In this document: positions 1,222 through 21,009 of the stretch, one piece after another | Position numbering within the stretch: position 1 is the stretch's first letter | Layout: every line of letters starts with the position of its first letter | Assembly: GCA_043816605.1 (NCBI GenBank) | Contig: JBDRHR010000173.1 | Location: 1 to 48,895 of the forward strand | Reading direction: 5' to 3' | DNA length: 48,895 nucleotides | From: Nitrospirota bacterium | GTDB taxonomy: Bacteria > UBA9089 > CG2-30-40-21 > SBAY01 | Translations under genes and position numbers: made by a program | The notes under the pieces: model-generated | Told to the model about the DNA's origin: nothing | The model's input: only the letters and a program-made list of their open reading frames with translations | Databases searched by the model: none

Positions 1222-4200
1222 TTATCTCGTAATAGCCATCTTACTTATCTTTTGCATTGTCTTACCGTTATAACTAACCGTTACCCGATAGAGGTAGATG
1301 CCACTGGCGATATTTTTATCTTCCCACACTACATCGGCTATTCCGGACACAGGATCTACCTCTTCCATTCCCCACTTTTCCCAGATTAATTCACCCACAA
1401 TATTATATACCGTTACCTGCATATCTACGCTAACCCCGTTAAGGAGGTTGGTTTTAGCACAGATAGTCGTTTTCCCGGAATGTGGATTAGGGTAGTTGAA
1501 TATCTCCAGAGACTCTAATGTTTGGGTAATCTCCGGGGAGGCGGGAGGTTTTGGTTTTACTATTGGACCCGACTTCTTTAATGTTGGAGTCCCTATGGCT
1601 AAAACTCCCATTGTATCTTTAGCCTCAAAGTAATATTTGTAATTATCACTTATAACTCCTAATTTTAAAATATAGTAATAAATCTTACCGGTTTTATAAT
1701 CAGTTCCAGATTCAACTACCATTTTGACATTTCCTACCGGGGTTTCATTATCAAGAATATAGATTTTAGGATAATTCGTTCCCGGTGCATCACCATCCTC
1801 ATCTTTATATCGGACTTTGAATGTAAAATATGTTTCATTAACAATCCCTTCCTCAGGGTCTAATCCATCCGTTTGAAAATTAGGACTACCTGCCCACTCC
1901 AATTTTGGGGCATGACTAACCTTTGGACCGGTTTTAAGTACGGTAAAAGGTCCCACTGCCACTGCCCCTTTAATATCTTTAGCATAGAATTTATACTTAT
2001 AAGTACCCGTAGCATTAAGGGTTATGGTTGTGGAGTAGGTAGCTCCTTTATAATGGCTTCCATTGAGATAAGTCATACTATAAGTTCCCAGTCCATAAGG
2101 TTTATTACCCTTAGAAATAACAACGGCTGGATACCCGGACGCCGGTAGATTAACATTCATATCCAAATAGGCTACATGGAAGGTAAAAATTCCAGGGGAT
2201 GCGGCATCAGGATTTACTCCATCGCTATAATATTCCTTCTCTCTAGTGGAAAATAAAAGAGGTGGATAATTTTGTCCCTCTACCTTTGGTCCAAAATGAA
2301 GTGTAGTCGGTTCACCTATTGCCAGCACATTATTACTATTTTTAGCCTCAAAATAATAACTATACGCCTCACTGGCATAAGGAAGGGAAATCTCATGAAA
2401 AGAATAGACCACCCCGGCAGAATAATTGCCTTCAGTTTCCTTTGTGAGGATATATCCAGGATAGATGAGCACACCTCCTATATAGATATAAATTTTTGGA
2501 TACCCGCCTGCCGGTGGAAGATTATTTACATCCGTATAGAGTATTTTATAAGTAAATTTATTCGTTGTTTGACCCGGGTCAGGATTAACCCCATCTGTCC
2601 CAAACCCCTCTTGATTTACCCAGTTTAAGGAAGGGGCATCATTTACCGATGGACCAGGTTTAACTGAGGTAATAACCGCAGACTGATACATATCCTTTGC
2701 CTCAAATTTATAGCTATATGTCCCTTCCGGAAAATTAGTTGAAAAGGTATATAACTTCCCATCGGTATAGGTTCCATCATTTAGGACAACTGGATTCATA
2801 AGAATAGGACTACCATTTGTCAGGGTTCCTCGAGAATAGATATATAATTTAGGGTAGCCTGTATGAGGTGGATGGTTATCTTTATCCACATATTTAATTC
2901 GGTAGGTATAGGTAATCTTTGTTGTCCCGTAATCAGGCTCAATACCATCATTGGTATATCCCAACTCACCTGTCCAGTTCAGGGTAGGTGGATTATTTAC
3001 AGGAGGTCCATCCATAAGTTGAATTTTACCAACCGCATCCATACCAGGCAAATCTTTCGCTATAAATTTATATTTGTAATCAAACCTGCTCTCCGCAAAT
3101 TGGAGCGGGTAATAATATAATTTACCATCTGTGTAAGTAATATCTTCTTCAGATACCTCACCCATGGCATAAGTACCTAAGACGGTCGTCCCTTTATAAA
3201 TAATTACCTTTGGATACCCATTTGCGGGAGAATTGTTATTATTATCAATATAATTTATTTTGTAAGTAAATATGGTTGCTGAATCACCTGAATCAGGATT
3301 GATACCATCGGTCCCAAACCCCGGCTCATTTACCCAGTCCAAAATAGGTGCATCGGTTACTACCGGCTTATTTTTAATGATGGTTGGTGTTCCCATAGCC
3401 TGAAGTTGGTAGCTATCCTTTGCCTCAAAGAAATACGAATAATTCCCAACCGGTAAATTAATTTCATATTTGTATATGCCGGCATTAATCGGGGTCATAC
3501 TAAACGAGCCGACAGGTGTCTGCCCCAGGTAAATATATAGTTTTGGAAAATTTTGAGCCGGCGGGTCATTATCCGCATCCTCGTATTTGACTTGATAGGT
3601 GAATTTAGTCCCTTGAGTCCCAAGTTCAGGGTCTATGCCGTCTTCAATAAATCCGGGGTTGCCACTCCAGGATAATACCGGTGTTCTACTTACATCAGGG
3701 GCATCCTTCTGCAAGGTAGGTGTTCCAGATGCCTTGATGCCATAAACATCCTCTGCCTCAAAGAAATAGGTGTAGTCCTTACCTGTGGCTTGAAATGTTT
3801 GCACAAAATAATAATCCTTACCATCCATACAGTTCTGGTCTGCTTGAGTTACCTCAAACATAGCAAAAGGACTTCCTGAAATTTCGGCACCTGCTTTGAG
3901 AATATGTAACTTTGGGAAACCTTGATATGGCAGGTCATTATTTGCATCAGAGTAGGTAACTTTATAGGTAAATTTAGTCCCCCAGGTGCCAAGTTCCGGG
4001 TGAAGACCATCGGTGCCATAATTTCCCTCCTGCACCCAATTTAATATCGGGGCATCTGTAACCACTGGTGCATTTGGTCTTAAGGTTATCGGTTCTTCCC
4101 CCACGGCAAAAACGCCAATAAAATCCTTTGCCTCAAAGAAATACTCATAATCCTTTCCTGTGGCAATTAGAACACGGGGATATTCATACTCCTTACCATC

Positions 4201-7200
4201 GGCATAGTTTGTATCCGCAGGAAGGGTTTCCAGCATCGGGAAAGGACTACCGTCGAGCTCTTTATTCGCCTTCAAGATATGTACCATAGGATACCCTGCT
4301 GCAGGTGGCTCGGTGTCGGTATAAAGGACTCGATAGACAAAAGAAGTCGTGGCAGACCCTGCCTCGGGGTTAAGTCCATCGGTGATATAACCGGGTTTAT
4401 TTACCCAACTTAACACCGGGGCTAAGGTTACCTTAGGTCCCTCTTTAATAAATGTTGGTGTCCCTGTAGCAGGCATCCCACGATTACTTTCTGCCGCAAA
4501 CCTATAAGTGTAAGTGCCAACTCCGAGGGATATAGAGCAGGAATATAATTTACCGTCCTCATAATTTGTATCCTGTGGATTCTCTTGAGCCATAGTCCAT
4601 GGGCTACCCTGTATTTCAGCCCCAACTTTAAAGATGTGTAGTCGTGGTGAATTTGTGCCCGGCGGGTCATTAGTAGAATTTATATACGAGATGCGATAGA
4701 CAAAACTCGTTCCCTGTGTCCCAAATTCAGGTTCTAACCCATCGCTCATATAACCAGGAGAGTCCTTTGCCCAGCTAAGTATTGGCTCACCGGTTACATT
4801 TGGTCCTGTAATAGCTGTTGTAGGCGTGCCTGCGGCATAAATTCCATAAGCATCCTTTGCCTCGAAATAATAGGAATACTCATTACTTGCGGCTATTAAC
4901 TTCCTGAAGAGTTGATATTCTTTGCCATCCTGATAATTTTTATCGTTCACATTCACCGGTTCAAGCGGGATTGGGCTGTCTTCTGTCTCAACCCCTTTTT
5001 TGAGGATATGTACCCTCGGATACCCTGCTGTAGGTGGGTCATTTTCATCATCCTGATATTTAACCTTATAAGTAAAGATTGTTTCAGCAGCTATACCGGT
5101 TTCCGGGTCTAACCCATCTGATTGAAAACTACCTGTCCCAATCCATTGTAATTGAGGTGGACTCCCAATCCTTGGACCTTGTTTAAAGGAAGTTGGTGCA
5201 GAGGGGAGACAATCCTCCTTTTTTATATCCTTTGCCTCAAACTTATACTTATAAATCCCATACTCTATTAGAGTAATCTTGTAACGATACAATGCCCCAG
5301 TAGAAAAACTACCATATTGCTTTTCCATCGTATAGGTGCCTATAAAACTTGTATCTTTATAAATATGAAGAAGTGGATAACCGAAATAAGGCTCATCACC
5401 ATTCAAATCTTTATAGACGATTAAATAAGTAAATTCTGTTCCTGATGTGCCAGCCTCAGGTTCTAATCCATCAGATATATATCCCGGCTGATTAGCCCAC
5501 ATCAGCATAGGTCTTGAGTTCTGGCCTGTAACCTCAGGTCCTGATTGAATAGCGGTCGGTGTCCCTTTTGCTACTTTACCTTGTCCATTTTTGGCTATAA
5601 AATAATAAGTGTATTTTGTGCTTGCTACAGGTAATCTTGTCGGATTTGTGTAATAGATTACCCCTTTCTGATAATCAGAGCCTGCTACTGGACGCATCAG
5701 AACACCATTTGGGTAGAAAGGAGATATTGCCCCCTCGATTAATATATATAGTTTGGGATAACCGGATGCCGGTGGAGAATTATTAACATCACTATATTTA
5801 ACTTTATAAGTAAAAAAGCCGGAAGTGATACCGATGTCCGGGTCAACCCCATCGTTTAAGTAAGGTTCCTGTCCAATCCATTCTAAAACAGGCTCACCAA
5901 TAAATAATGGTCCTATCTTTTTGGTTATTGGCTCCCCGGTAGCAAAAAAACCGGTTGTGTCCTGAGCGATGAATTGATATGAATAAGTGCCTGGCGAAGG
6001 TAGATATTTAGCCAGTTTATATTGTTTTCCATCGGTATAAGTAATATCCTGTGGATTTACCTCATCCATCTTAAATGGACTACCGGTAATTTTCACATTA
6101 TTAAGAAAAATATCCACCTTAGGAAAACCCTCTAAAGGCGGGTCGTTATCAAAGTCTGTATAATTAATTTTGTAAATAAATTCAGTGCCGATTGTACCCA
6201 GTGAAGGACTCACACCACTATTTGCATAATCTCCTTCCCCTACCCAACTCAAAGTAGGCACACTATTTACCTTGGGACCATCTAATACATTTACATGCTC
6301 TTCTATAGCCTGACTACCCTCGATATCCTCTGCCTCAAATCTATAACTATAACTGCCGGTTTCAACAAACACAATGGATGATTTATATAATTTACCGGTA
6401 ATAAAAGAACCTCCAGGATTAACGAGCGTCATAGCAAAAGGACTACCATTAATGCTACTGCCTGCCTTGAAAATATGTACCTTTGGCGAGCTGGTGCCGG
6501 GTGGGTCGTCATCTATATCCTTATACTTAATTAGAAAGGTAAATTCAGTTCCCGTAGTGCCTACATTTGGTTCAACTCCATCTTCAGTATAACCTGCCGA
6601 ACCTGCCCAGATTAAAACAGGGAAATTATTCACGATAGGTCCTGTCTGCCACTGCGTAGGGGTTCCAATAGCCTGAACACCATAAGTATCCTTTGCCTCA
6701 AATTTATAGGTATAGTTTATACTGTGGGACAGACAGGTAGAAAACTTATATTCTTTACCATCAATATAATTATTATCTTCAGGGGAAGCCTCATCCATCT
6801 TAAACGGGCTTCCTGAAATATTGATGCTATTCCACAGGATATAAACCCTTGGATATAAAGGTCCAGGTGGGTTATTATCCATATCCTTATATTCCACCTT
6901 GTAGGTGAATAGTGTATCCTTGGTGCCTGTGTCTGGTTTAACCCCGCAGGTTTGATATTCCAGTGTCCAGTTTAATATTGGGGCATTACTTACCCTTGGA
7001 CCAGATTGTTCCCACTGAGTAGGTTGACCTGTTGCCTTTGCCGCATAAATATTTTCAGCCTCAAATTTATAGGTATAACTTCCAGAGGGAAGTGAAAAGG
7101 CTATCCGATATATTTTACCATCCGTATAATAATCATCATAAATATCCTCTTCCTGCATCCCAAAGGAAATATAAGGTTGCTGATTTAAAAAGATATTGAC

Positions 7201-10200
7201 CTTTGGTGACCCTGTCCCTGGTGGGAAGTTACCTCGGTCAGTATAGATTATTCTGAATGTGAATTTAGTTCCTGGCGTGCCGACCTCAGGATTTAATCCA
7301 TCCATGATAAATTCATCCACACCTACCCAATATAAAGATGGGATAGAAACAACAGTCGGTCCTGAATGAAAAATAGTCGGACTACCGAAGGCATAAAGAC
7401 CACTTGTATTCTTAGCCTCAAATCGATAGGTGTATGTTCCCGGGAGGTTAAGTGGGTAAAAATACTCATAAACTTTACCATCAACATATTCTTTATCTTG
7501 AGGGTTTGCCTCAATCATCTGGGTATATAATACATCCTGACTGCCTTTCTGGATTTGTAATTTAGGAAATCCTGCAAGGGGGGGGTCGTTATCCTCATCA
7601 AAATAAATTATTCGATAAGTAAAGGTAGTGCCAACAATCCCAATCTCCGGCTCCAACCCATCATCAATAAATCCTTGTTGCCCAAACCACTCTAATTTTG
7701 GACTACCGCTAACCTTTGGTCCTGGCATAAAAGAAGAAGGAGGAAATAACACCTCTTCTCCTTCTTCGTCTTTGACTTTGAATTGGTATTGATACTGGTT
7801 TTTTTCCGGGAGGGAGGTAGAATAGGAATAAAGTGCCCCTTGAAGAAAATTCCCGGAAACAAAATTCATGGTTACGGTAGCCATCAAAACCATATTCTTG
7901 TAAATGTAAACTAATGGATAGTTATTGTCAGGATGGTCACCATTTATATCCTGATAGCGTATTTGATAAATAAATTTAGTTCCTAATGTGCCAACATCAG
8001 GGTCTATACCGTCTGAGATAAAACCTGAATTAGCCGACCAGAATAGTGTTGGTTTAAAATTAGGTCCATCAATTAGAGGTCCATCGTGTTCTAAAGTAGG
8101 TTCACCTATGGCGGTTATTTCTTTGATATTTTTTGCCTCAAAATAATAGGCATAGTGTTTAGAACCTATTGGAAATGTAGTTGGGAAGCTATAAGTAACC
8201 CCTGTCTTATAATCATTACCCTCTTTAATATACATCCATTGACCACCCGGAGATTGAGGTGCACCACCGCGTAGGATATACACCTTTGGATATTGATTTG
8301 CCGGGGGATTACCATCAGGGTCTATATAGAGCACCTTATAGGTAAAAGTAGTGTTCTGGATTGTGCCTGTGCCTGGATTAATCCCGTCATTTGTGTATTC
8401 TTGTGTGCCTGCCCATTTTAATATTGGTGAGCCAATTATTGAAGGTCCATTTTTAAGGAAAGTAGGTGCACCGGTTGCTTTATTATTAGAGGCGTCGTAA
8501 CCCTCGAAAAAGTATGAGTATGTGCCTATCTCTTGAAATGATATTGAATAGGTGAATAATTTCCCATCTTTATAATCGGTATCTTGCGGGTTAACCTCTT
8601 CTAATACAAATGCGCCAATTTCGTTGCCTCCCTTTAAGATATGAACTACGGGATAGTTTGGTAGTGGCGGCTCTCCATCCACATCCGTATAATTAACTCG
8701 ATAGGTAAAGGTTGTTTGAATATCACCTTGTTCAGGTTCAAGCCCGTCATTGACATAACCTTGCTCATAAGTCCAGGTCAGGGTAGGGATACTTCTAACT
8801 ACAGGAGATGAAGATATATTCGTTGGACTACCCATAGCCTTAATCATGAGATAATCATACGCCTCAAATTGATAGGTAAATGAACCTGCCTGGTCGAAAA
8901 TCTTAGTTAGTGTATATCCTTTACCATCATTATAGAGGACATCACCTGGATTTATTGGCTGCATCGGACAAGGGCTACCGGAGATTTCTTTGCCCTCTTT
9001 AAATATATGCACCACAGGATAGTAACTATGAGGAGGGTCGTTGTCAACATCTTTATAGATTATTTTATAAGTAAATGCTGTTAGATTCACGGTTCCTACC
9101 TCTGGCTCTAATCCATCAGATATATACCCCGGCTCATTGAGCCATTCCAGAATAGGGGCATTACTGACTATGGGTCCGGATTTCAAAGAGGTAAAGCACT
9201 GCAAATCTTTTTTATCCCTTGCCTCAAATTTATACTGATAAATACCGGTTGTTTTAACGGTATAAGTTGTACCATAAATAGCCCCTGAGGTAACTGACCC
9301 ATAAAAATAACTCATCGTCTTTGTTCCAATAAACACACCACTTTTATAGACATAGAGTATGGGGTATCCTTCCTTAGGTAGGTCCGCATTCAAATCGGAA
9401 TATTTAATCCGATAATTAAATGCTGTGTCAAAATTACCCGTCTCAGGTTCAAGACCATCTGAGACATACCCTTGATTACCAACCCAGAGGAGTCTTGGCG
9501 GATAGTTTAGACCAGTAACTAAGGGACCTGGTTGACTAATCGTAGGCGTGCCTATGGCAAAAACACTGAGTGTATTTTTAGCCTCAAAATAATAGGAATA
9601 ATAGTCGCTGGCAAAGATAAGGGGTAATTTAGCGACATAAATCATTCCAGTCACATAATCATTTCCACTTTCTTTAGACATTTTTGTCTGACTTACTACC
9701 TCTCCACCTCTGAGCACATACAATTTTGGATAATTTGAATCAGGTGGGATATTATCCTCATCGCTATATCGGACTTTATAAGTAAATATCGTCGTATTAA
9801 TGCCTGTGTTTGGCTCAATTCCCTCAGTTTTATATCCCTCTGCATCTACCCACTTTAACACAGGCGCCTTTGCCACGATAGGTCCTGTTTTAAGTTGAGT
9901 TGGCTCACCGGTTGCTATAAAATCATCTCTATCTTTAGCCTCAAATTGGTAATAGTATTTCCCCGCCATATTTAATGGAATTGAGAAGGTATAAATCTTC
10001 CCATCTATCCAATCAGTATCTTGAAGATTTCCCTCTTCCATAGAAAATGGGCTATTTTGTATCTGGTTAGTGCCTAAGTAAATATATACCCTCGGATACC
10101 CTTGTGCCGGTGGGATATTTTGAGGATGGGTAAAAGTTATTCGATAGGTAAATGTAGCTCCGAGATTACCTGCTTCCAGTTCAAGTCCATCTATTTTATA

Positions 10201-13200
10201 ACCTTGCTCATTAGTCCAGGTTAAAACAGGTATTTTCCCAACCCAGGGTCCAGAAGATGGTGTTGTCGGTGTTCCTTTAGCTTTAACCCCAAGGGTATCT
10301 TCTGCTTCAAAACAGTAGGTGTATGTTCCCGGCAAAGAAAAGGTTTTAAGATATTTGTAGAGTTTACCATCTGTATATTCCGTATCATTAGGGACAACCG
10401 CTTGCATTGGATAGGGACTACCACTTATCTCATTACCTGATTTAAGGATATGCAGTTTGGGGAAACCATTAGCCGGTGGAAAATTAGTCTCATGAAAATA
10501 TGCCACTTTGTAGGTAAATATCGTTTCATCCGAACCACGCTCCGGCTCTAAACCATCCTCAATACATCCTTCTTCGCCTGCCCACTTGAGTATTGGAGGT
10601 GGATGTGGCGTGGTAGTTATGGTAGCAATGGCAAGTACTGACTCATTACCCGCATCATCTATGGTTTTTAAGCCAAGGTAATAAAGGGTGGTTGGTTCTA
10701 ATCCGGTAATGGTAACCTGTCGAAAACTGCCTGCGACCGCAGATATGGGTTCATTATTTATTTGTTTGGCAGTAACCCAGGTATCCTCATTTATTACCCC
10801 CGTAGAATAGCGAATATCATACATCGTTGGCGTGCCTAATCGGTTATCATCACCTGCAGATAGCCAGAATAAAGTAGTTGAAATTGCGGTAGTGTTGGTC
10901 GCGGTCAGGGTCGTCGTTCCAGGTGGGATAATATCACGCGATAACTCCATGTATGGTGCCGGATTCCCATTGCTCGGGTGTATGGTTTGTGTATCTGTGC
11001 CTTCAAGTGCACCCTCGGCAAATAAATAAAGATTATCCTGAGCCGCAGTATAATCATCAAAAAATGATTGCAAATCAGCAGTTCTAAAATTAACCAGATT
11101 ATAAAGCCACTGTCCTTCTGTAACCAGAACTGATGCCCATGAAGAGGTGCCCAAATCACCTTGTTTATCCACATCTTGTAATTGAATATAGACAATTGCC
11201 CCGTCTGCATATTCTAATTTACCTTGTTTATATACCTCTCCCTGAACTAAACGGTTTTCAGGTTTTGGAATAATAGATGCCCCTGTTCTAACCGTATAAT
11301 GAAAGCCAGTATTGGTATCAAGAACACCACCACGGAGAACATCATAGTAATATAAGGTATTTACATTTAATCCGACAATGGTTACATGATGGGTATCGTC
11401 TATATAACCTATTCCCCTGTCGTCAAAGTTAGACTGATTTAAGGAATTAGGATTAGTGCCGTAATTGACCGTGCCTGACTCTTGTTTAGTTGATGTCCAG
11501 GAGATAGTGAACTGGGAGTCGGTGATATTCGTCTCACAATATGAGATACCGCTAACTATGGGTCCTTGTTGAATAACGGTAGCCGTGCCTGAGGCATCGG
11601 TAGCAAAAAATCGGTAAGAATATGTGCCTGGAGTAGAAAGAAATCGGGAAAATTTATATACTGCACCCGTAGCATAAGTCCCTTGGACATACGACATAGA
11701 ATGTGTTCCGACAGACTGCCCATCTTTATAAATAATTACTCCTGGCGAACTTGTCCCGGGTGCATCATTATCTAAATCAATATATTTCACCTTGAAGGTG
11801 AACGCCATATCAATATTACCGGAGTCAGGATAAACACCATCTTTGAGATACTCCCCTTCACCTACCCAGTCGAGGGTAGGGTTATGTTTCATTTCAGGTG
11901 TAGTTGAGCCTTCAACCACCCCGGACAACTCCGACATATTCCACACCTCGTCAATTGTCTTTAATCCAAAATAGTAAGTAGATGCCGGACTTAACCCTTC
12001 AACAGTAAGTTCCTGCCAATTGCCGGCAGATAATGGTACAGGTTCTAATTTAATTTCTTGCGTCATTCCCCAGAGCGTTTCTGTCCAAGAAAACTGGGCA
12101 TATCTAAAGTCATAAATTGAGGCTATGCCAAGATTTTTATCATCTCCAGTTGCTTGCCACTTTAATGTGATTGAACCAACCCCTGCCTTTATTACTTGTA
12201 AGGTAGTAATTGACGCAGGGGCAATTACATCCCGGCAAAGCTCTATGGGTAATGCGGGCGAGTCATTTGCTGTAAGAACTATTTCACTTCCAATTCCTTC
12301 CTCAACACCCTGAACAAATAAATAAAGTTCATCCGTCGTAGAGGAATAGTTAAATTGTGAGGCTAAATCTATGGTTCTAAAATTGACTAAATCCGCCATC
12401 CAGTAACCATTCTCCTGGACTAATGCCGAGGCTGGGGCTGAGGTAAGCAGACTACCCTGTCCATCATTATCCTTTAATTCAAGATAGACAAGGGCATCCT
12501 TCGCCACGGATTGTCCACCTTGTTTGAGTACCGCTCCATAAACTATGTCACTACCGGAGCTAATGAATGACTTGCCTGTCCGGAGGGTATAATGATTGCC
12601 GGAATTATCATCAGTAATCCCACCTGAGACGACATCAAAATAATAGACTGTTTCCGGGCTCAACCCCTTAACCGTTACATGGTGTGTTCTACCGCTAAAT
12701 CCTGCCCCACGGTCATCATCCCATTTCATATTTACTGCTTGTGCGTTTATCCCATATTTCACATAGCCTGTTACCGATGATGAAGTTATCCATGAAACCG
12801 TAAATTGGCTATCTGTTTGATTGGTTACACGCACACCGTTATCTATATCCGCAACTATTGGTCCTTTAGTTAAGGATGTAGGTTCACCTTCTGCCCCCTG
12901 AGTATAGAATTGATAACTATACTCCCCGTTTTCCTGAAAAACCTTTGAGTAGGTATAAATTGCCCCAGTAGTAAAAGAGCCTTTGACATAAGTCGTCGAG
13001 TAAGTTCCAAGAGATGTTGCCCCTTTATAAAGGATGATTTTCGGCTCTCCTTTTGGCGGCGGAAGATTCTGCGGGTGGGTGTACTTGACCATATAGACAA
13101 AGTTAGTGCCTGAGGTGCCCAAGTCTAATCTCAAACTATCTTTGACAAAATTATTCTCACCTGTCCAGGATAACATTGAATTAGGTGCCGGTGAGGTTTT

Positions 13201-14208
13201 AGCAGAAACAACATTGGATAAGTCCGACCAATTACCCGCCTTATCACGGGTTTTAATTGCCAGATAGTAAAGTGTATTGGGTGAAAGCGTTGGGACTTGA
13301 AATTCCTGTTGAGTTCCGGCAAGTAAAGGTGCGGGTTCTCCTTGAACCTGGAAGGCATTCCCAAAATTACCTTCAGTTATTGGTGATAATGACCATCGAA
13401 TATCGTATAAAAATGCCTGTCCCTGATTTCCATCATCGCCTGGTGTAATCCATTTTAAGGTAATTGAATTAGAGGTAACTTGTTTGATTTCAAGGGTATT
13501 AATACTTGAGGGTTTGATATGGTCGGTAGAAAGGATTATATCCGGTGCGGGTGAGTCCTGGTTAGTATCCACGGTTAAGGTAGCAGTCCCATCTTTTGAG
13601 CCCTGGGCAAATAAAACAAGGTTATCTCCACCATTGACAGAATAGTCAAAAAATCCACTCAGGTCGTGCGTCCTCAGGTTAACCAGGTTTTCTGACCAAT
13701 AACCATTAGCGTCAACCAGAACAGACCAAACCGCAGATTCCCCAGGACTACCGTTTGAATCCGCATTACTAAGTTTAAAATAAACAATTGTTCCTGTAGC
13801 AAAAGTTTGGGCATCTGATTTAAATACCTTCCCGTAGGCATAATCAATTCCGGAAGGTTTAATATTTGCTCCAGTCATACACTGATAATACACACCATTA
13901 TTGTTATCAACTATAGCTCCTGAGACTAACTCAAAATAATATAAGGTTTCAGGGCTTAATCCGGTGATATTTACATAATGTGTGTCGTCAACCGTGTTTT
14001 GACCACGCACATCATAAGCGGTTTGCCCTAAGGCAGGGGTTTGTCCATAATGGACCGCACAGGTTTCCTGAACATCTGTTATCCAGGACAGAGTAATCTG
14101 GCTATCCGTAACATTTGTTGTTCGTATCTCCTTAGGAATACTTGCCTCCGTTATGCAGGTTATTCCAAAGGTAATTATAAATATGCCGGCAAAAAAACTT
14201 TTCTTCAT
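1222..14208 (-). CDS. giant secreted modular surface protein (4,328 aa) with FN3-type domains, a ~120-aa repeat array and a T9SS-type C-terminal domain
   Basis: Uninterrupted 12,987-nt ORF. AGGAAG Shine-Dalgarno about 6 nt before the ATG. Signal peptide MKKSFFAGIFIITFGITCITEA. Coherent repeated domain architecture throughout. C-terminus matches the Por secretion tail pattern. Confidence 0.95.
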   Translation of the reverse strand: MKKSFFAGIFIITFGITCITEASIPKEIRTTNVTDSQITLSWITDVQETCAVHYGQTPALGQTAYDVRGQNTVDDTHYVNITGLSPETLYYFELVSGAIVDNNNGVYYQCMTGANIKPSGIDYAYGKVFKSDAQTFATGTIVYFKLSNADSNGSPGESAVWSVLVDANGYWSENLVNLRTHDLSGFFDYSVNGGDNLVLFAQGSKDGTATLTVDTNQDSPAPDIILSTDHIKPSSINTLEIKQVTSNSITLKWITPGDDGNQGQAFLYDIRWSLSPITEGNFGNAFQVQGEPAPLLAGTQQEFQVPTLSPNTLYYLAIKTRDKAGNWSDLSNVVSAKTSPAPNSMLSWTGENNFVKDSLRLDLGTSGTNFVYMVKYTHPQNLPPPKGEPKIILYKGATSLGTYSTTYVKGSFTTGAIYTYSKVFQENGEYSYQFYTQGAEGEPTSLTKGPIVADIDNGVRVTNQTDSQFTVSWITSSSVTGYVKYGINAQAVNMKWDDDRGAGFSGRTHHVTVKGLSPETVYYFDVVSGGITDDNSGNHYTLRTGKSFISSGSDIVYGAVLKQGGQSVAKDALVYLELKDNDGQGSLLTSAPASALVQENGYWMADLVNFRTIDLASQFNYSSTTDELYLFVQGVEEGIGSEIVLTANDSPALPIELCRDVIAPASITTLQVIKAGVGSITLKWQATGDDKNLGIASIYDFRYAQFSWTETLWGMTQEIKLEPVPLSAGNWQELTVEGLSPASTYYFGLKTIDEVWNMSELSGVVEGSTTPEMKHNPTLDWVGEGEYLKDGVYPDSGNIDMAFTFKVKYIDLDNDAPGTSSPGVIIYKDGQSVGTHSMSYVQGTYATGAVYKFSRFLSTPGTYSYRFFATDASGTATVIQQGPIVSGISYCETNITDSQFTISWTSTKQESGTVNYGTNPNSLNQSNFDDRGIGYIDDTHHVTIVGLNVNTLYYYDVLRGGVLDTNTGFHYTVRTGASIIPKPENRLVQGEVYKQGKLEYADGAIVYIQLQDVDKQGDLGTSSWASVLVTEGQWLYNLVNFRTADLQSFFDDYTAAQDNLYLFAEGALEGTDTQTIHPSNGNPAPYMELSRDIIPPGTTTLTATNTTAISTTLFWLSAGDDNRLGTPTMYDIRYSTGVINEDTWVTAKQINNEPISAVAGSFRQVTITGLEPTTLYYLGLKTIDDAGNESVLAIATITTTPHPPPILKWAGEEGCIEDGLEPERGSDETIFTYKVAYFHETNFPPANGFPKLHILKSGNEISGSPYPMQAVVPNDTEYTDGKLYKYLKTFSLPGTYTYCFEAEDTLGVKAKGTPTTPSSGPWVGKIPVLTWTNEQGYKIDGLELEAGNLGATFTYRITFTHPQNIPPAQGYPRVYIYLGTNQIQNSPFSMEEGNLQDTDWIDGKIYTFSIPLNMAGKYYYQFEAKDRDDFIATGEPTQLKTGPIVAKAPVLKWVDAEGYKTEGIEPNTGINTTIFTYKVRYSDEDNIPPDSNYPKLYVLRGGEVVSQTKMSKESGNDYVTGMIYVAKLPLIFASDYYSYYFEAKNTLSVFAIGTPTISQPGPLVTGLNYPPRLLWVGNQGYVSDGLEPETGNFDTAFNYRIKYSDLNADLPKEGYPILYVYKSGVFIGTKTMSYFYGSVTSGAIYGTTYTVKTTGIYQYKFEARDKKDLQCFTSLKSGPIVSNAPILEWLNEPGYISDGLEPEVGTVNLTAFTYKIIYKDVDNDPPHSYYPVVHIFKEGKEISGSPCPMQPINPGDVLYNDGKGYTLTKIFDQAGSFTYQFEAYDYLMIKAMGSPTNISSSPVVRSIPTLTWTYEQGYVNDGLEPEQGDIQTTFTYRVNYTDVDGEPPLPNYPVVHILKGGNEIGAFVLEEVNPQDTDYKDGKLFTYSISFQEIGTYSYFFEGYDASNNKATGAPTFLKNGPSIIGSPILKWAGTQEYTNDGINPGTGTIQNTTFTYKVLYIDPDGNPPANQYPKVYILRGGAPQSPGGQWMYIKEGNDYKTGVTYSFPTTFPIGSKHYAYYFEAKNIKEITAIGEPTLEHDGPLIDGPNFKPTLFWSANSGFISDGIDPDVGTLGTKFIYQIRYQDINGDHPDNNYPLVYIYKNMVLMATVTMNFVSGNFLQGALYSYSTSLPEKNQYQYQFKVKDEEGEEVLFPPSSFMPGPKVSGSPKLEWFGQQGFIDDGLEPEIGIVGTTFTYRIIYFDEDNDPPLAGFPKLQIQKGSQDVLYTQMIEANPQDKEYVDGKVYEYFYPLNLPGTYTYRFEAKNTSGLYAFGSPTIFHSGPTVVSIPSLYWVGVDEFIMDGLNPEVGTPGTKFTFRIIYTDRGNFPPGTGSPKVNIFLNQQPYISFGMQEEDIYDDYYTDGKIYRIAFSLPSGSYTYKFEAENIYAAKATGQPTQWEQSGPRVSNAPILNWTLEYQTCGVKPDTGTKDTLFTYKVEYKDMDNNPPGPLYPRVYILWNSINISGSPFKMDEASPEDNNYIDGKEYKFSTCLSHSINYTYKFEAKDTYGVQAIGTPTQWQTGPIVNNFPVLIWAGSAGYTEDGVEPNVGTTGTEFTFLIKYKDIDDDPPGTSSPKVHIFKAGSSINGSPFAMTLVNPGGSFITGKLYKSSIVFVETGSYSYRFEAEDIEGSQAIEEHVNVLDGPKVNSVPTLSWVGEGDYANSGVSPSLGTIGTEFIYKINYTDFDNDPPLEGFPKVDIFLNNVKITGSPFKMDEVNPQDITYTDGKQYKLAKYLPSPGTYSYQFIAQDTTGFFATGEPITKKIGPLFIGEPVLEWIGQEPYLNDGVDPDIGITSGFFTYKVKYSDVNNSPPASGYPKLYILIEGAISPFYPNGVLMRPVAGSDYQKGVIYYTNPTRLPVASTKYTYYFIAKNGQGKVAKGTPTAIQSGPEVTGQNSRPMLMWANQPGYISDGLEPEAGTSGTEFTYLIVYKDLNGDEPYFGYPLLHIYKDTSFIGTYTMEKQYGSFSTGALYRYKITLIEYGIYKYKFEAKDIKKEDCLPSAPTSFKQGPRIGSPPQLQWIGTGSFQSDGLDPETGIAAETIFTYKVKYQDDENDPPTAGYPRVHILKKGVETEDSPIPLEPVNVNDKNYQDGKEYQLFRKLIAASNEYSYYFEAKDAYGIYAAGTPTTAITGPNVTGEPILSWAKDSPGYMSDGLEPEFGTQGTSFVYRISYINSTNDPPGTNSPRLHIFKVGAEIQGSPWTMAQENPQDTNYEDGKLYSCSISLGVGTYTYRFAAESNRGMPATGTPTFIKEGPKVTLAPVLSWVNKPGYITDGLNPEAGSATTSFVYRVLYTDTEPPAAGYPMVHILKANKELDGSPFPMLETLPADTNYADGKEYEYPRVLIATGKDYEYFFEAKDFIGVFAVGEEPITLRPNAPVVTDAPILNWVQEGNYGTDGLHPELGTWGTKFTYKVTYSDANNDLPYQGFPKLHILKAGAEISGSPFAMFEVTQADQNCMDGKDYYFVQTFQATGKDYTYFFEAEDVYGIKASGTPTLQKDAPDVSRTPVLSWSGNPGFIEDGIDPELGTQGTKFTYQVKYEDADNDPPAQNFPKLYIYLGQTPVGSFSMTPINAGIYKYEINLPVGNYSYFFEAKDSYQLQAMGTPTIIKNKPVVTDAPILDWVNEPGFGTDGINPDSGDSATIFTYKINYIDNNNNSPANGYPKVIIYKGTTVLGTYAMGEVSEEDITYTDGKLYYYPLQFAESRFDYKYKFIAKDLPGMDAVGKIQLMDGPPVNNPPTLNWTGELGYTNDGIEPDYGTTKITYTYRIKYVDKDNHPPHTGYPKLYIYSRGTLTNGSPILMNPVVLNDGTYTDGKLYTFSTNFPEGTYSYKFEAKDMYQSAVITSVKPGPSVNDAPSLNWVNQEGFGTDGVNPDPGQTTNKFTYKILYTDVNNLPPAGGYPKIYIYIGGVLIYPGYILTKETEGNYSAGVVYSFHEISLPYASEAYSYYFEAKNSNNVLAIGEPTTLHFGPKVEGQNYPPLLFSTREKEYYSDGVNPDAASPGIFTFHVAYLDMNVNLPASGYPAVVISKGNKPYGLGTYSMTYLNGSHYKGATYSTTITLNATGTYKYKFYAKDIKGAVAVGPFTVLKTGPKVSHAPKLEWAGSPNFQTDGLDPEEGIVNETYFTFKVRYKDEDGDAPGTNYPKIYILDNETPVGNVKMVVESGTDYKTGKIYYYILKLGVISDNYKYYFEAKDTMGVLAIGTPTLKKSGPIVKPKPPASPEITQTLESLEIFNYPNPHSGKTTICAKTNLLNGVSVDMQVTVYNIVGELIWEKWGMEEVDPVSGIADVVWEDKNIASGIYLYRVTVSYNGKTMQKISKMAITR
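1225..1509 (-). other. T9SS type-A-like C-terminal sorting domain (Por secretion tail / FlgD-Ig-like) of the giant protein
   Basis: The last ~95 aa read ..FNYPNPHSGKTTI..VTVYNIVGELIW..WEDKNIASGIYLYRVTVSYNGKTMQKISKMAITR. This fits the YPNPF..IYN..G..V...SGIY.YR....K..K consensus as remembered for TIGR04183-type tails. Confidence 0.7.
1510..10602 (-). repeat. coding tandem array: 25 diverged copies of a ~120-aa domain
   Basis: Recurrent pattern P.L.W.G..GY..DG..P..G...T.FTY.V.Y.D.D.DPP...YP.V.I......GSP..M......D..Y.DGK.Y......G.Y.Y.FEAKD..G..A.G.PT, counted 25 times from about residue 1203 to about residue 4235. Confidence 0.85.
10603..14118 (-). repeat. coding super-repeats: three ~430-aa units
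   Basis: Units start at about residue 31 (TNVTDSQITLSW), 461 (VTNQTDSQFTVSW) and 892 (ETNITDSQFTISW). Each contains a purple-acid-phosphatase-N/FN3-like module, a beta-sandwich-like module, an FN3 module (..GDD.N.G....YDIRYS..) and one ~120-aa domain. Confidence 0.8.
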
Positions 14209-19914: not shown

Positions 19915-20847
19915 TTACTGGGCATCAAACCTAAAGGTAATAGAAAGTCGGTGGGTGTTACCTAATTCATCATAGGGGACAAAGGCATAGTCTATTTGGT
20001 AGTGTTTAATCGTGAAACCAAACCCACCGGTAATTCCGGTACCTAAGTCTTTAAATACCTGTGAATTAAATCCACCTCGCAGGGCGAGCAACTGCTTAAA
20101 CCATAATTCCATGCCAAGATTCATTTTCCAGTCATTATCTGTTGGTTTAGTTAAATCACAGGTGATAGTCAACGGTTGGACTCCAAGTCGATAGGCACTA
20201 CCTAATTTAAGTGTTAATGGTAATTTATCCCCTTCACTTGAAAATTTTATTCTCGGACCTACATTTTGGAGTACCGTAGATAAAGTTAAACCATCAATAG
20301 GAGTTTGATACAATTGTCCTAAGTCAATTGCAAATGAAGATGCCTCCTCGTTCTCTATTTTTTGAACAATACCCTTGATAGTCATTCCAATTGATATAGC
20401 CTCGGTTATAGCTGAGGCATAGGTAAAAGCAAAGGCAGTATCCCGGACTGAGAAATTACCCGTACTTTCGGGTTGTGACTTCACATCACCATCTTTATAC
20501 CCGGGAATATTACCTACCCCTAAATGGATGACACTAAAACCAATTGCCTTTTTCCTTGAGGTAGGCACCCCAAAGCCGAGAAATCCATGCCCCACCCCTT
20601 CAAACCAATCATTGTACATCATGGATATTTCAGGTTTGGTAATCTGGACAAGACCCGCTGGATTCCAGTAGACCGCGGTAATATCATCGGCTAATGCCGA
20701 GAAAGCCTCACCCATAGCTACGGCTTTAGCCCCCACACCTATCTTTAAAAATGGCGCACCGGCAGTTCCAGGAGATGTCTTTGCCCAACAATTACTTACT
20801 ATTGAAAACATCACTAAGCAATTTATTAAAACTAATTTATGCCTCAT
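19915..20847 (-). CDS. PorV/PorQ-family outer-membrane beta-barrel protein
   Basis: Motif GAPFLKIGVGAKAVAMGEAFSALADDITAVYWNPAGL and a beta-barrel-like C-terminus ending ..RLSITFRF. Start placed at the ATG at 20847 (MRHKLVLINCLVMF.. signal peptide with GGGAGA Shine-Dalgarno). The longer ORF start at 20871 lies inside a repeat hairpin. Confidence 0.7.
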   Translation of the reverse strand: MRHKLVLINCLVMFSIVSNCWAKTSPGTAGAPFLKIGVGAKAVAMGEAFSALADDITAVYWNPAGLVQITKPEISMMYNDWFEGVGHGFLGFGVPTSRKKAIGFSVIHLGVGNIPGYKDGDVKSQPESTGNFSVRDTAFAFTYASAITEAISIGMTIKGIVQKIENEEASSFAIDLGQLYQTPIDGLTLSTVLQNVGPRIKFSSEGDKLPLTLKLGSAYRLGVQPLTITCDLTKPTDNDWKMNLGMELWFKQLLALRGGFNSQVFKDLGTGITGGFGFTIKHYQIDYAFVPYDELGNTHRLSITFRFDAQ

Positions 20848-20864
20848 CTCTTTCTCCCTTACCG

Positions 20865-21009
20865 TAAGCATTTAGCTATCAGGTATCATGGTTCGACAGG
20901 ACTTCAGCGTGAGCTCAGTCGAACGCTCACCATGACAAAATGTCACCCTGAGTTTGTCCGAAGGGTGATGGTTTTTGCTGACTGCTGATACCTGATTACT
21001 GACTGCTTA
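20865..21009. repeat. compound hairpin with a GC-richer REP-like core
   Basis: Outer arm taagcatttagctatcaggtatca pairs with tgatacctgattactgactgcttaa. Inner stems are ggttcgac..gtcgaac, catgg..ccatg and tcaccct..agggtga. Confidence 0.65.

What the first reader, a model, noticed from the sequence alone, without database searches (positions are those of the whole stretch)
1510..10602. Unclassified ~120-aa domain in a punctuated higher-order array
The domain consensus is P.L.W.G..GY..DG..P..G...T.FTY.V.Y.D.D.DPP...YP.V.I...GSP..M....D..Y.DGK.Y....G.Y.Y.FEAKD..G..A.G.PT. I cannot assign it to a domain family I know; it is not PKD, FN3, cadherin or BIg by motif. The 25 copies fall into three sequence classes. 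Class S is the standard form with ..GSP..M...D..Y.DGK.Y. Class C has Y.LRGG/..G.DY..G..Y and ..YYFEAKN. Class D has ..G.Y.M.Y..G....GA.Y. The order reads S S C D / S S C D / S x5 C D / S x7 C D / C. A C-D pair therefore punctuates the array four times. The single ~120-aa domains inside super-repeats 1 and 2 are class D. This points to block duplication of multi-domain units followed by S-type expansion. The invariant D.D(N/G)DPP and DGK motifs could be metal- or glycan-binding sites.
Basis: seen in the sequence. Interest (0 to 1): 0.62.

Follow-up and report, generated by a model that had tools for sequence, protein, structure and literature searches.

The report
Unnamed Ig-like repeats in giant surface protein
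The 27 repeats are real copies of a widespread beta-sandwich domain that the Pfam and NCBIfam copies searched here do not name but that has one solved relative (a non-catalytic module of a Paenibacillus xanthan-degrading enzyme); they form the long stalk of a 4,328-residue secreted surface protein of an uncultivated biofilm bacterium, which is tidy and useful for domain curation but not extraordinary.

Summary
One intact ORF (window 1222-14208, minus strand, 4,328 aa) holds 27 copies of a ~120-aa domain: 25 in tandem (residues 1205-4218, nt 1555-10596) and one in each of the first two N-terminal super-repeats. The class order S S C D / S S C D / Sx5 C D / Sx7 C D / C is exactly as reported.

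No model in the Pfam or NCBIfam copies searched matches any copy. The domain does have a solved relative, residues 822-916 of the GH9 xanthanase PspXan9 (PDB 6FHJ). I showed this is the uncharacterised penultimate 'beta3' module, not the xanthan-binding CBM84 that follows it. The family is large, with 3,286 clusters at 50% identity.

In trees, class C and the four array D copies form supported clades, while S is the unresolved remainder and resembles the xanthanase domain. The array is old and fixed. Orthologues in all five other genomes of the family keep the same order, and all 27 positions are monophyletic. There is no DNA-level repeat. The supposedly invariant motifs are not invariant.

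Best reading: the protein is a cargo of the type IX secretion system (T9SS), and this Ig-like array is an extended stalk carrying an FN3-rich N-terminal head. Calcium or glycan binding is untested. Interest is modest.

The parts
1222..14208 (-). Gene for the 4,328-aa giant secreted protein (P0001)
   Evidence: Single open frame with an ATG start. Orthologues of 4,093-4,386 aa occur in all five other genomes of the same family.
14143..14208 (-). N-terminal signal peptide (residues 1-22, MKKSFFAGIFIITFGITCITEA)
   Evidence: Read directly from the translation. This is an inference from the hydrophobic core and the small residues before the cut site; no signal-peptide predictor was available.
10597..14142 (-). 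N-terminal 'head': three super-repeats of a purple-acid-phosphatase-N-like FN3, an unassigned ~100-aa beta segment and an fn3. The first two also carry a class-D copy.
   Evidence: Pfam Pur_ac_phosph_N (E=3e-29) and fn3 (E=2e-20).
12844..13179 (-). Copy N1 (class D), residues 344-455
   Evidence: Profile hit E=6e-33. Classed D by HMM. Forms a clade with N2 (SH-aLRT 93).
11545..11880 (-). Copy N2 (class D), residues 777-888
   Evidence: Profile hit E=3e-36. Classed D.
1555..10596 (-). Tandem array of 25 domains R01-R25 (residues 1205-4218)
   Evidence: AlphaFold2 model of R01 has pLDDT 96.9 and is a seven-strand beta-sandwich.
9865..10596 (-). R01-R02, class S (block 1)
9157..9864 (-). R03-R04, first C-D pair
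   Evidence: AlphaFold2 model of this pair has pLDDT 91.4 and pTM 0.79.
8428..9156 (-). R05-R06, class S (block 2)
   Evidence: R01/R05 and R02/R06 are reciprocal best matches.
7702..8427 (-). R07-R08, second C-D pair
5893..7701 (-). R09-R13, five class-S copies (block 3). R11-R12 are absent from the orthologues of one genus.
5158..5892 (-). R14-R15, third C-D pair
2635..5157 (-). R16-R22, seven class-S copies (block 4). R16 is sister to class C, and R20 has an 8-residue loop deletion.
1909..2634 (-). R23-R24, fourth C-D pair
1555..1908 (-). R25, terminal class-C copy
1246..1494 (-). C-terminal T9SS sorting domain (Por_Secre_tail), residues 4239-4321
   Evidence: Pfam PF18962: E=3e-4 on the protein and 26.7-28.2 bits in the genome search. 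NCBIfam match to the C-terminal tail of a T9SS-dependent protein, E=4e-9. Three of the four orthologue proteins retrieved have PF18962 on record.

Best explanation
The region encodes the stalk of a giant cell-surface protein exported by the type IX secretion system (T9SS). The protein has a Sec signal peptide and an N-terminal 'head' of three FN3-rich super-repeats. Then come 25 tandem ~120-aa beta-sandwich (Ig-like) domains and a C-terminal T9SS sorting domain. The repeat domain belongs to a large family that the Pfam and NCBIfam copies searched here do not name. Its only solved member is the penultimate non-catalytic 'beta3' module of the Paenibacillus GH9 xanthanase PspXan9.

Shown here: the copies, their fold, their homology to 6FHJ 822-916, the three sequence forms, their order, and the age of the array. 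Class S is the canonical form of the family and keeps the long loop (SP..M...D..Y.DGK) also seen in the xanthanase module. Classes C and D are derived forms in which this loop is modelled as a longer beta-hairpin. C and D were duplicated together as a two-domain unit. Every one of the 27 positions has been kept as a distinct orthologous domain across four genera.

Inferred, not shown: the N- and C-termini of each domain lie at opposite poles, so the array forms an extended fibre. At roughly 4 nm per domain it would be of the order of 100 nm long. It would be tethered at its C-terminal end to the outer membrane after T9SS export, and it would hold the N-terminal head away from the cell, as in other giant adhesins of biofilm bacteria. 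The acid-rich B-C loop (Y.D.DNDPP), the D..Y.DG loop and FEAKD probably lie at the same pole of the domain and may bind Ca2+ to stiffen it. This last point is speculation.
For: - ORF and architecture.
- Twenty-seven copies at E=1e-33 to 1e-46.
- No Pfam or NCBIfam model on any copy. The family on record, PF23376, is Fn3_VIN3.
- Fold: AlphaFold2 pLDDT 96.9 for R01 and 91.4 with pTM 0.79 for the C-D pair.
- Homology to 6FHJ 822-916: profile E=3e-11 with motif-by-motif alignment. Foldseek E=1e-6, TM 0.71, rmsd 2.0 A, 28% identity.
- That module is beta3, not CBM84. The ~135 aa that follow it in a near-orthologue (P0153) hit 7EHG MiXBM (E=1e-34), 6FHJ 917-976 and xanthan lyase 6F2P 766-899 (E=9e-30). 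The 822-916 fragment and the repeat profile hit neither 7EHG nor 6F2P. The module order Ig-GH9-beta1-beta2-beta3-CBM84 comes from PMC11002231.
- Family size: 3,286 clusters at E<=1e-3 and 743 at E<=1e-30. Many members carry FlgD_ig or Por_Secre_tail C-terminal domains.
- Age of the array: the same class string in the orthologues. The best match is always the same position, at 55-85% identity, against 26-52% between positions. All 27 positions are monophyletic in a 158-domain tree. Position-specific motif variants are conserved. No DNA tandem repeat.
- T9SS context: a PorV-like gene in the window, an SprA-like 1,993-aa frame, and 12 frames with Por_Secre_tail in the genome.
- Habitat: biofilm and groundwater metagenomes.
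Against: - No experiment bears on this protein.
- The Por_Secre_tail score sits at Pfam's threshold (21.5-28.2 bits). The SprA match is partial and below the family cut-off.
- Anchoring, fibre length and adhesion are inferred by analogy.
- pTM 0.79 for one C-D pair was not compared with an S-S pair, and no coordinates or PAE were available. Rigidity and the position of the acidic loops are therefore deduced from strand topology only.
- The acidic loop is degenerate in several copies, which weakens the idea of a uniform Ca2+ site.
- InterPro member databases other than Pfam and NCBIfam (Gene3D, CDD, PANTHER) could not be searched. PF28387, a newer Pfam family on record for one distant homologue (P0162), could not be inspected. 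It is not on record for this protein or its orthologues.
Confidence: 0.72

Rival explanations
1. The repeats are themselves the ligand-binding units. In this reading the array is a multivalent lectin or carbohydrate-binding array that binds exopolysaccharide of the biofilm matrix, with the S-class loop (SP..M...D..Y.DGK) as the sugar or Ca2+-sugar site.
For: The only solved relative sits in a polysaccharide-degrading enzyme next to a true CBM. The S-class loop is conserved from Paenibacillus to this organism. The organism comes from biofilm metagenomes. Deleting the extra N-terminal beta2+beta3 modules of CspXan9 lowered activity about 17-fold (PMC11002231).
Against: CspXan9 variants that keep beta1-beta3 but lack CBM66 showed no binding to lyase-treated xanthan in affinity gels (PMC11002231). 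The repeat profile does not match CBM84 modules. Ten of the 27 copies (classes C and D, except R25) lack the full DGK motif. No Pfam CBM model matches beyond a single chance-level hit (CBM_20, E=0.17, one copy).
Confidence: 0.18
2. The protein is released rather than anchored. It would act as a matrix scaffold or sheath component of the biofilm, like RbmA-type scaffolds, with the array providing length and self-association.
For: T9SS cargo can be released as well as anchored (established knowledge of the T9SS). The tandem model resembles RbmA, SiiE and titin-type tandem pairs, but only weakly. Biofilm source.
Against: There is no evidence of self-association. The Foldseek similarities are generic (TM 0.25-0.36). 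Whether the tail is of the anchoring type A class could not be tested here, so the tail neither supports nor excludes release.
Confidence: 0.08
3. The array is an assembly artefact or a decaying gene, for example collapsed or chimeric repeats in a metagenome-assembled genome.
For: The genome is a 250-contig MAG, and repeat-rich genes are prone to misassembly.
Against: The copies share only 26-52% protein identity and there is no DNA tandem repeat, so there is nothing to collapse. The frame is intact over 13 kb. Five independent MAGs carry the same order of domains.
Confidence: 0.01

Closest known systems
Penultimate all-beta module ('beta3') of GH9 endo-xanthanases: PspXan9 of Paenibacillus sp. 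62047 (PDB 6FHJ/6FHN, chain residues 822-916) and CspXan9 of Cohnella sp. (PMC11002231)
   Same: It is a homologous domain. Profile E=3e-11, with the same motifs aligned (G..G..T.FTY...YTD.NN.P; D..Y.DG..Y; G.Y.F...D; GP.V). Foldseek E=1e-6, TM 0.71, rmsd 2.0 A over 107 columns, 28% identity. Class S keeps the same long loop.
   Different: In the xanthanases it is one copy (two in CspXan9) inside a secreted Gram-positive glycoside hydrolase. Here there are 27 copies and no catalytic domain, in a T9SS cargo protein. The function of beta3 is unknown, and no xanthan binding was seen without the CBM.
CBM84 xanthan-binding modules (PspXan9 C-terminus, MiXBM 7EHG, xanthan lyase 6F2P)
   Same: It lies immediately next to the homologous module in PspXan9, and both are all-beta.
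   Different: It is a different family. The CBM84 segment (6FHJ 917 onwards) hits 7EHG and 6F2P at E=1e-34 and 9e-30. Neither the repeat profile nor the 822-916 fragment hits them.
Giant tandem Ig-like repeat adhesins (Salmonella SiiE BIg array, RTX adhesins such as MpIBP and LapA, Flavobacterium SprB as a T9SS example)
   Same: These are very long secreted proteins made of dozens of beta-sandwich domains forming an extended stalk with a distinct end region. The tandem C-D model retrieves SiiE, titin and SYG-2 pairs. SprB is also T9SS cargo (established knowledge).
   Different: The domain family differs: no Big, cadherin or PKD Pfam match. SiiE and the RTX adhesins use type I secretion and proven inter-domain Ca2+ sites. 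No conserved acidic residue is seen in the linkers here.
Cadherin DxNDNxPxF calcium motif
   Same: There is a superficial likeness to Y.D.DNDPP (and to DANNQAPF in 6FHJ).
   Different: The motif sits in the B-C loop in the middle of the domain, not in the inter-domain linker. There is no Cadherin Pfam match at E<=10. The likeness is recalled from memory and is only a lead.

Membership tests
Xanthanase beta3-like beta-sandwich family (no name in the Pfam and NCBIfam copies searched) | Significant sequence similarity to 6FHJ residues 822-916 | tested here: met
   hmmsearch of the 27-copy profile against PDB: E=3.1e-11, 46.8 bits, profile positions 13-120.
Xanthanase beta3-like beta-sandwich family (no name in the Pfam and NCBIfam copies searched) | Same fold as the solved module | tested here: met
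   The AlphaFold2 model (pLDDT 96.9) has 6FHJ as best PDB hit: E=9.9e-7, TM 0.71, rmsd 2.0 A. The next hits are generic Ig-like folds at E>=9e-4.
CBM84 | Sequence similarity to established CBM84 modules (7EHG MiXBM, 6F2P 766-899, PspXan9 C-terminus) | tested here: not met
   CBM84 was located as the segment after residue 916 of 6FHJ. The repeat profile and the 822-916 fragment do not hit 7EHG or 6F2P at E<=10.
CBM84 | Demonstrated binding to xanthan | not testable with these tools
   This needs binding assays. In the literature, xanthanase variants that keep beta1-beta3 but lack the CBM did not bind (PMC11002231).
PKD / fn3 / Cadherin / Big_x (named Ig-like repeat families) | Match to the Pfam model at or near the gathering threshold | tested here: not met
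   Each of the 27 copies was scanned alone at E<=10. There were no hits to these families, and the best hit of any kind was DUF5013 at E=0.002 in one copy. fn3 hits lie only in the N-terminal head.
T9SS cargo protein | C-terminal Por_Secre_tail sorting domain | tested here: met
   PF18962: E=3e-4 and 26.7 bits, or 28.2 with neighbours, against a cut-off of 27. NCBIfam tail match E=4e-9. On record for three of the four orthologue proteins retrieved. The score is marginal.
T9SS cargo protein | T9SS machinery in the same genome | tested here: inconclusive
   A PorV-like protein in the window (E=1.8e-7). An SprA-like 1,993-aa frame, E=7e-33 but below the family cut-off. Twelve frames with the sorting tail. 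PorU and PorK/L/M/N were not searched, and the genome is 94% complete.
T9SS cargo protein | N-terminal Sec signal peptide | tested here: inconclusive
   A typical hydrophobic N-terminus was read from the translation. No predictor was available.
Ca2+-stiffened adhesin repeats (SiiE/BIg, cadherin type) | Conserved acidic Ca2+ ligands at domain junctions | tested here: inconclusive
   Acidic loops are common but not invariant. No conserved acidic residue lies in the linkers. No coordinates or ion modelling were available.

The most novel reading that the evidence does not exclude
The co-duplicated C-D pair may be a rigid two-domain 'node' placed at four conserved positions in the stalk. It could be a docking site for partner proteins or a hinge or ruler element that sets the reach of the fibre. 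In addition, the canonical S form of this unnamed family may carry a so far undescribed intradomain Ca2+ or glycan site, formed by the Y.D.DNDPP and D..Y.DGK loops and shared with the xanthanase beta3 module.
Probability: 0.12. Interest if true: 0.55.

Novelty: new member of a known kind. Interest (0 to 1): 0.3.

Why it matters
The practical value is curation. A domain family with more than 3,000 clusters at 50% identity has a solved structure but no model in the Pfam or NCBIfam copies searched. It is present in Bacillota glycoside hydrolases, in Caldithrix abyssi, in Candidatus Manganitrophus and in many uncultivated bacteria. Unchecked earlier notes of this scan also report it in an Asgard archaeon. 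These 27 diverged copies and their orthologues make a good seed alignment. The locus is also a clean example of a repeat array that is frozen rather than dynamic: each of 27 positions has kept its own identity across four genera. This argues that position along such stalks matters. It also clarifies that the xanthanase relative is the uncharacterised beta3 module and not CBM84, so a carbohydrate-binding role should not be assumed by transfer.

Tried and rejected
1. CBM84 identity. I rejected this after retrieving a near-orthologue of PspXan9 and showing that CBM84 is the next module along.
2. An existing Pfam family. PF23376, on record for the protein, turned out to be Fn3_VIN3, a faint FN3 hit. 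PF28387, on record for one distant homologue, is absent from the local library and could not be inspected.
3. An 'S-C-D-C plus sorting tail' cassette shared with a paralogous giant beta-propeller protein. Rejected: in that protein the block lies at residues 686-1170, far from its tail.
4. Recent expansion or concerted evolution of the array. Rejected by positional orthology and the absence of DNA repeats.
5. Naming the organism. A genome-contig scan with the giant protein found nothing. A scan with LysRS gave only 49-56% identity to many phyla. NCBI labels the orthologues simply 'bacterium'.
7. The Moroz et al. 2018 paper on 6FHJ is not held, so the Ca2+ sites of that structure could not be read.
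8. Foldseek of the two-domain model gave only generic tandem Ig/FN3 pairs.


Full report
**What is there**

The finding lies inside one uninterrupted ORF on the minus strand, window 1222..14208, which encodes 4,328 residues.
- The translation begins with a typical signal peptide.
- Next come three super-repeats of about 430 aa. Each holds a purple-acid-phosphatase-N-like FN3, an unassigned beta segment and an fn3 (Pfam).
- Residues 1205-4218 are a head-to-tail array of 25 units of 111-127 aa.
- The protein ends in a Por_Secre_tail sorting domain at residues 4239-4321.
- Two further copies of the unit sit at the ends of super-repeats 1 and 2.

A profile built from the copies finds all 27 at E = 6e-33 to 4e-46. 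TRF finds no nucleotide-level tandem repeat in the gene, and the copies share only 26-52% protein identity. This is an old, diverged array, not a recent or misassembled one.

**Classes and order**

In a maximum-likelihood tree of the 27 copies:
- class C is a clade (99/95);
- the D copies group together with R20 (89/91);
- S is the unresolved rest.

Single clades for D and for S are not rejected (AU p = 0.29 and 0.22).

With the orthologous domains of five related genomes added (158 domains):
- the three labels need only the minimum of two changes on the tree;
- the four array C copies form a clade (SH-aLRT 90), joined by R25 (79) and then by R16 (85);
- the four array D copies form a clade (97);
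- the two N-terminal D copies form their own clade (93).

R01/R05 and R02/R06 are reciprocal best matches, which fits duplication of an S-S-C-D block. Relationships among the other S copies are not resolved.

S has SP..M......D..Y.DGK.Y. C has YIL.GG, G.DY.TG, YYFEAKN and a three-residue C-terminal extension. D has GT..M, a three-residue deletion and G....GA.Y.

The motifs called invariant are not. Only six columns are invariant. DGK is specific to class S. The acidic loop Y.D.DNDPP is altered in several copies.

**The array is frozen**

All five other genomes of the same family (four genera in total) carry an orthologue of 4,093-4,386 aa.
- Their class strings are identical, apart from the absence of two S domains (positions 13-14) in one genus. 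In another genus the R16 position scores as C.
- Every orthologous domain finds its best match at the same position of the window protein, at 55-85% identity.
- All 27 positions are monophyletic.
- Position-specific oddities are conserved across genera. Examples are the H..N variant of the acidic loop at positions 1, 3 and 4, the two-residue deletion at position 20, the Cys at position 21 and the eight-residue deletion at position 22.

The duplications therefore predate the family, and each position is under its own purifying selection. The 'S-type expansion' is ancient history, not an ongoing process.

**What the domain is**

No Pfam-A or NCBIfam model matches the repeats. This holds for the whole protein and for each copy scanned alone at E<=10.

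The precomputed list from a newer Pfam release names only FN3-type families for this protein. PF23376 in that list is Fn3_VIN3.

The domain is not an orphan, however. The 27-copy profile hits chain residues 822-916 of PDB 6FHJ/6FHN at E=3e-11, with all the signature motifs aligned. These entries are the GH9 endo-xanthanase PspXan9 of Paenibacillus sp. 62047.

An AlphaFold2 model of R01 has pLDDT 96.9 and is a seven-strand beta-sandwich. Its best PDB match is 6FHJ, with E=1e-6, TM 0.71, rmsd 2.0 A and 28% identity. Everything else is generic Ig-like similarity.

A model of the C-D pair R03-R04 has pLDDT 91.4 and pTM 0.79. Both variant classes adopt the same sandwich, and the region corresponding to the S-class loop is modelled as a longer beta-hairpin. 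Foldseek with the pair returns only generic tandem Ig/FN3 pairs such as SYG-2, SiiE and titin.

**Which xanthanase module**

This matters because PspXan9 carries the xanthan-binding CBM84.
- PMC11002231 gives the architecture as Ig-like, GH9, beta1, beta2, beta3, CBM84.
- I retrieved a near-orthologue (P0153, 93% identical over the fragment).
- The ~135 residues that follow the matched domain hit MiXBM 7EHG (E=1e-34), 6FHJ 917-976 and xanthan lyase 6F2P 766-899 (E=9e-30). That segment is CBM84.
- The 822-916 fragment and the repeat profile hit neither 7EHG nor 6F2P.

The relative is therefore the penultimate beta3 module, whose function is unknown. In the Cohnella enzyme, variants that keep beta1-beta3 but lack the CBM did not bind lyase-treated xanthan. 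Removing the extra N-terminal beta2-beta3 pair did lower activity about 17-fold (PMC11002231). A carbohydrate-binding role cannot be transferred to the repeats.

**How widespread it is**

An exhaustive HMM search of 1.84 billion cluster representatives finds 3,286 proteins at E<=1e-3 and 743 at E<=1e-30. Many have 5-50 copies.
- Most copies in those proteins are of the S type. C-like and D-like forms occur in a minority.
- Partner domains include FlgD_ig and Por_Secre_tail C-terminal domains, BNR/propeller and RCC1 domains.
- Named organisms among the homologues include Caldithrix abyssi, Candidatus Manganitrophus and Paenibacillus species.
- Among the window's relatives, 16 of 31 genomes have the domain.
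- Earlier notes of this scan report the same family and the same closest structure in other lineages. These are leads that agree with my own tests, not independent evidence.

**Context and likely role**

- The neighbouring genes are housekeeping genes, plus a PorV-like barrel.
- The genome is a 2.6-Mb MAG, 94% complete. It has an SprA-like frame and 12 frames with T9SS tails.
- The sequence occurs in biofilm and groundwater metagenomes.
- The organism could not be named. LysRS is at most 56% identical to anything retrieved, and NCBI calls the orthologues' source 'bacterium'.

From the strand order of the model, each domain's N- and C-termini lie at opposite poles. The array should therefore be an extended fibre. 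I infer a T9SS-exported, C-terminally tethered stalk of the order of 100 nm that presents the FN3-rich head, in the manner of giant adhesins. By the same topological reasoning, the acidic B-C loop, the D..Y.DG loop and FEAKD should cluster at the N-terminal pole. A Ca2+ site there is possible but untested, and the loop is degenerate in several copies.

**Verdict**

It overstates the invariance of the motifs, and it misses that a solved relative exists and that the array is ancient. This is a new member of a known kind: a giant tandem Ig-like surface protein built from a widespread domain that the Pfam and NCBIfam copies searched here do not name. It is useful as a seed for domain curation and as an example of a positionally frozen repeat array, but it would not surprise a specialist.

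Noticed in passing
PMC10049358 primers compared with 6FHJ chain residues 875-1009: The forward primer for the 'PspCBM84' construct of Ni et al. 2023 encodes ...GGGGGS-DGRVYT. That sequence lies inside the beta3 module (6FHJ 875-881), not at the start of CBM84 (917). The reverse primer ends at ...ALGN, which is 38 residues before the native C-terminus as seen in P0153. The construct therefore seems to hold half of beta3 plus a truncated CBM84.
   Followed up: partly
PDB 6FHJ chain, residues 976 onwards: The deposited sequence of the CBM84 region turns to unknown residues (X) at residue 976, where the printed alignment ends. The chain (1,009 residues) is about 42 residues shorter at the C-terminus than the mature length deduced from the near-orthologue P0153.
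   Followed up: no
window 13500-13870 and the equivalent segments of super-repeats 2 and 3 (protein residues ~115-235, ~545-665, ~975-1095): The ~100-120-aa segment between the Pur_ac_phosph_N-like FN3 and the fn3 of each super-repeat (G.V.K......A...VY..L.D.D..G........SVLV...G.W..NLVN.RT.DL...F.Y) has no Pfam hit at E<=10. It looks like another unnamed beta module.
   Followed up: no
L021/L022 (G003:C35, G005:C24); P0057, P0166: A second giant T9SS-type protein of related genomes (4,177-4,334 aa, annotated '6-bladed beta-propeller') carries a single S-C-D-C block at residues 686-1170. Its domains best match window positions 8, 25, 26 and 27 at 50-68% identity. The C-D unit is therefore shared between two different giant proteins.
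   Followed up: partly
own genome G000:C177:6879-7262 (-), C102:22876-23142 (+), C37:5292-5675 (-): There are further copies of the domain outside the window. One strong copy (E=2e-34) lies in an 832-aa frame. Weak copies lie in a 145-aa frame and in a 2,729-aa frame that also ends in a Por_Secre_tail.
   Followed up: no
P0162 (844 aa, Deltaproteobacteria bacterium RIFOXYD12_FULL_50_9): This protein has four copies of the domain (64-72 bits each). Its only Pfam family on record is PF28387.1, which is absent from the local Pfam copy. It is not on record for the window protein or its orthologues, so it probably covers another part of P0162. This could not be checked.
   Followed up: partly
window 19915-20871 (-): A PorV-like outer-membrane barrel (Pfam PorV, E=1.8e-7) lies 6 kb upstream of the giant gene, among housekeeping genes (PhoH2, Der, a class IV aminotransferase).
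   Followed up: no
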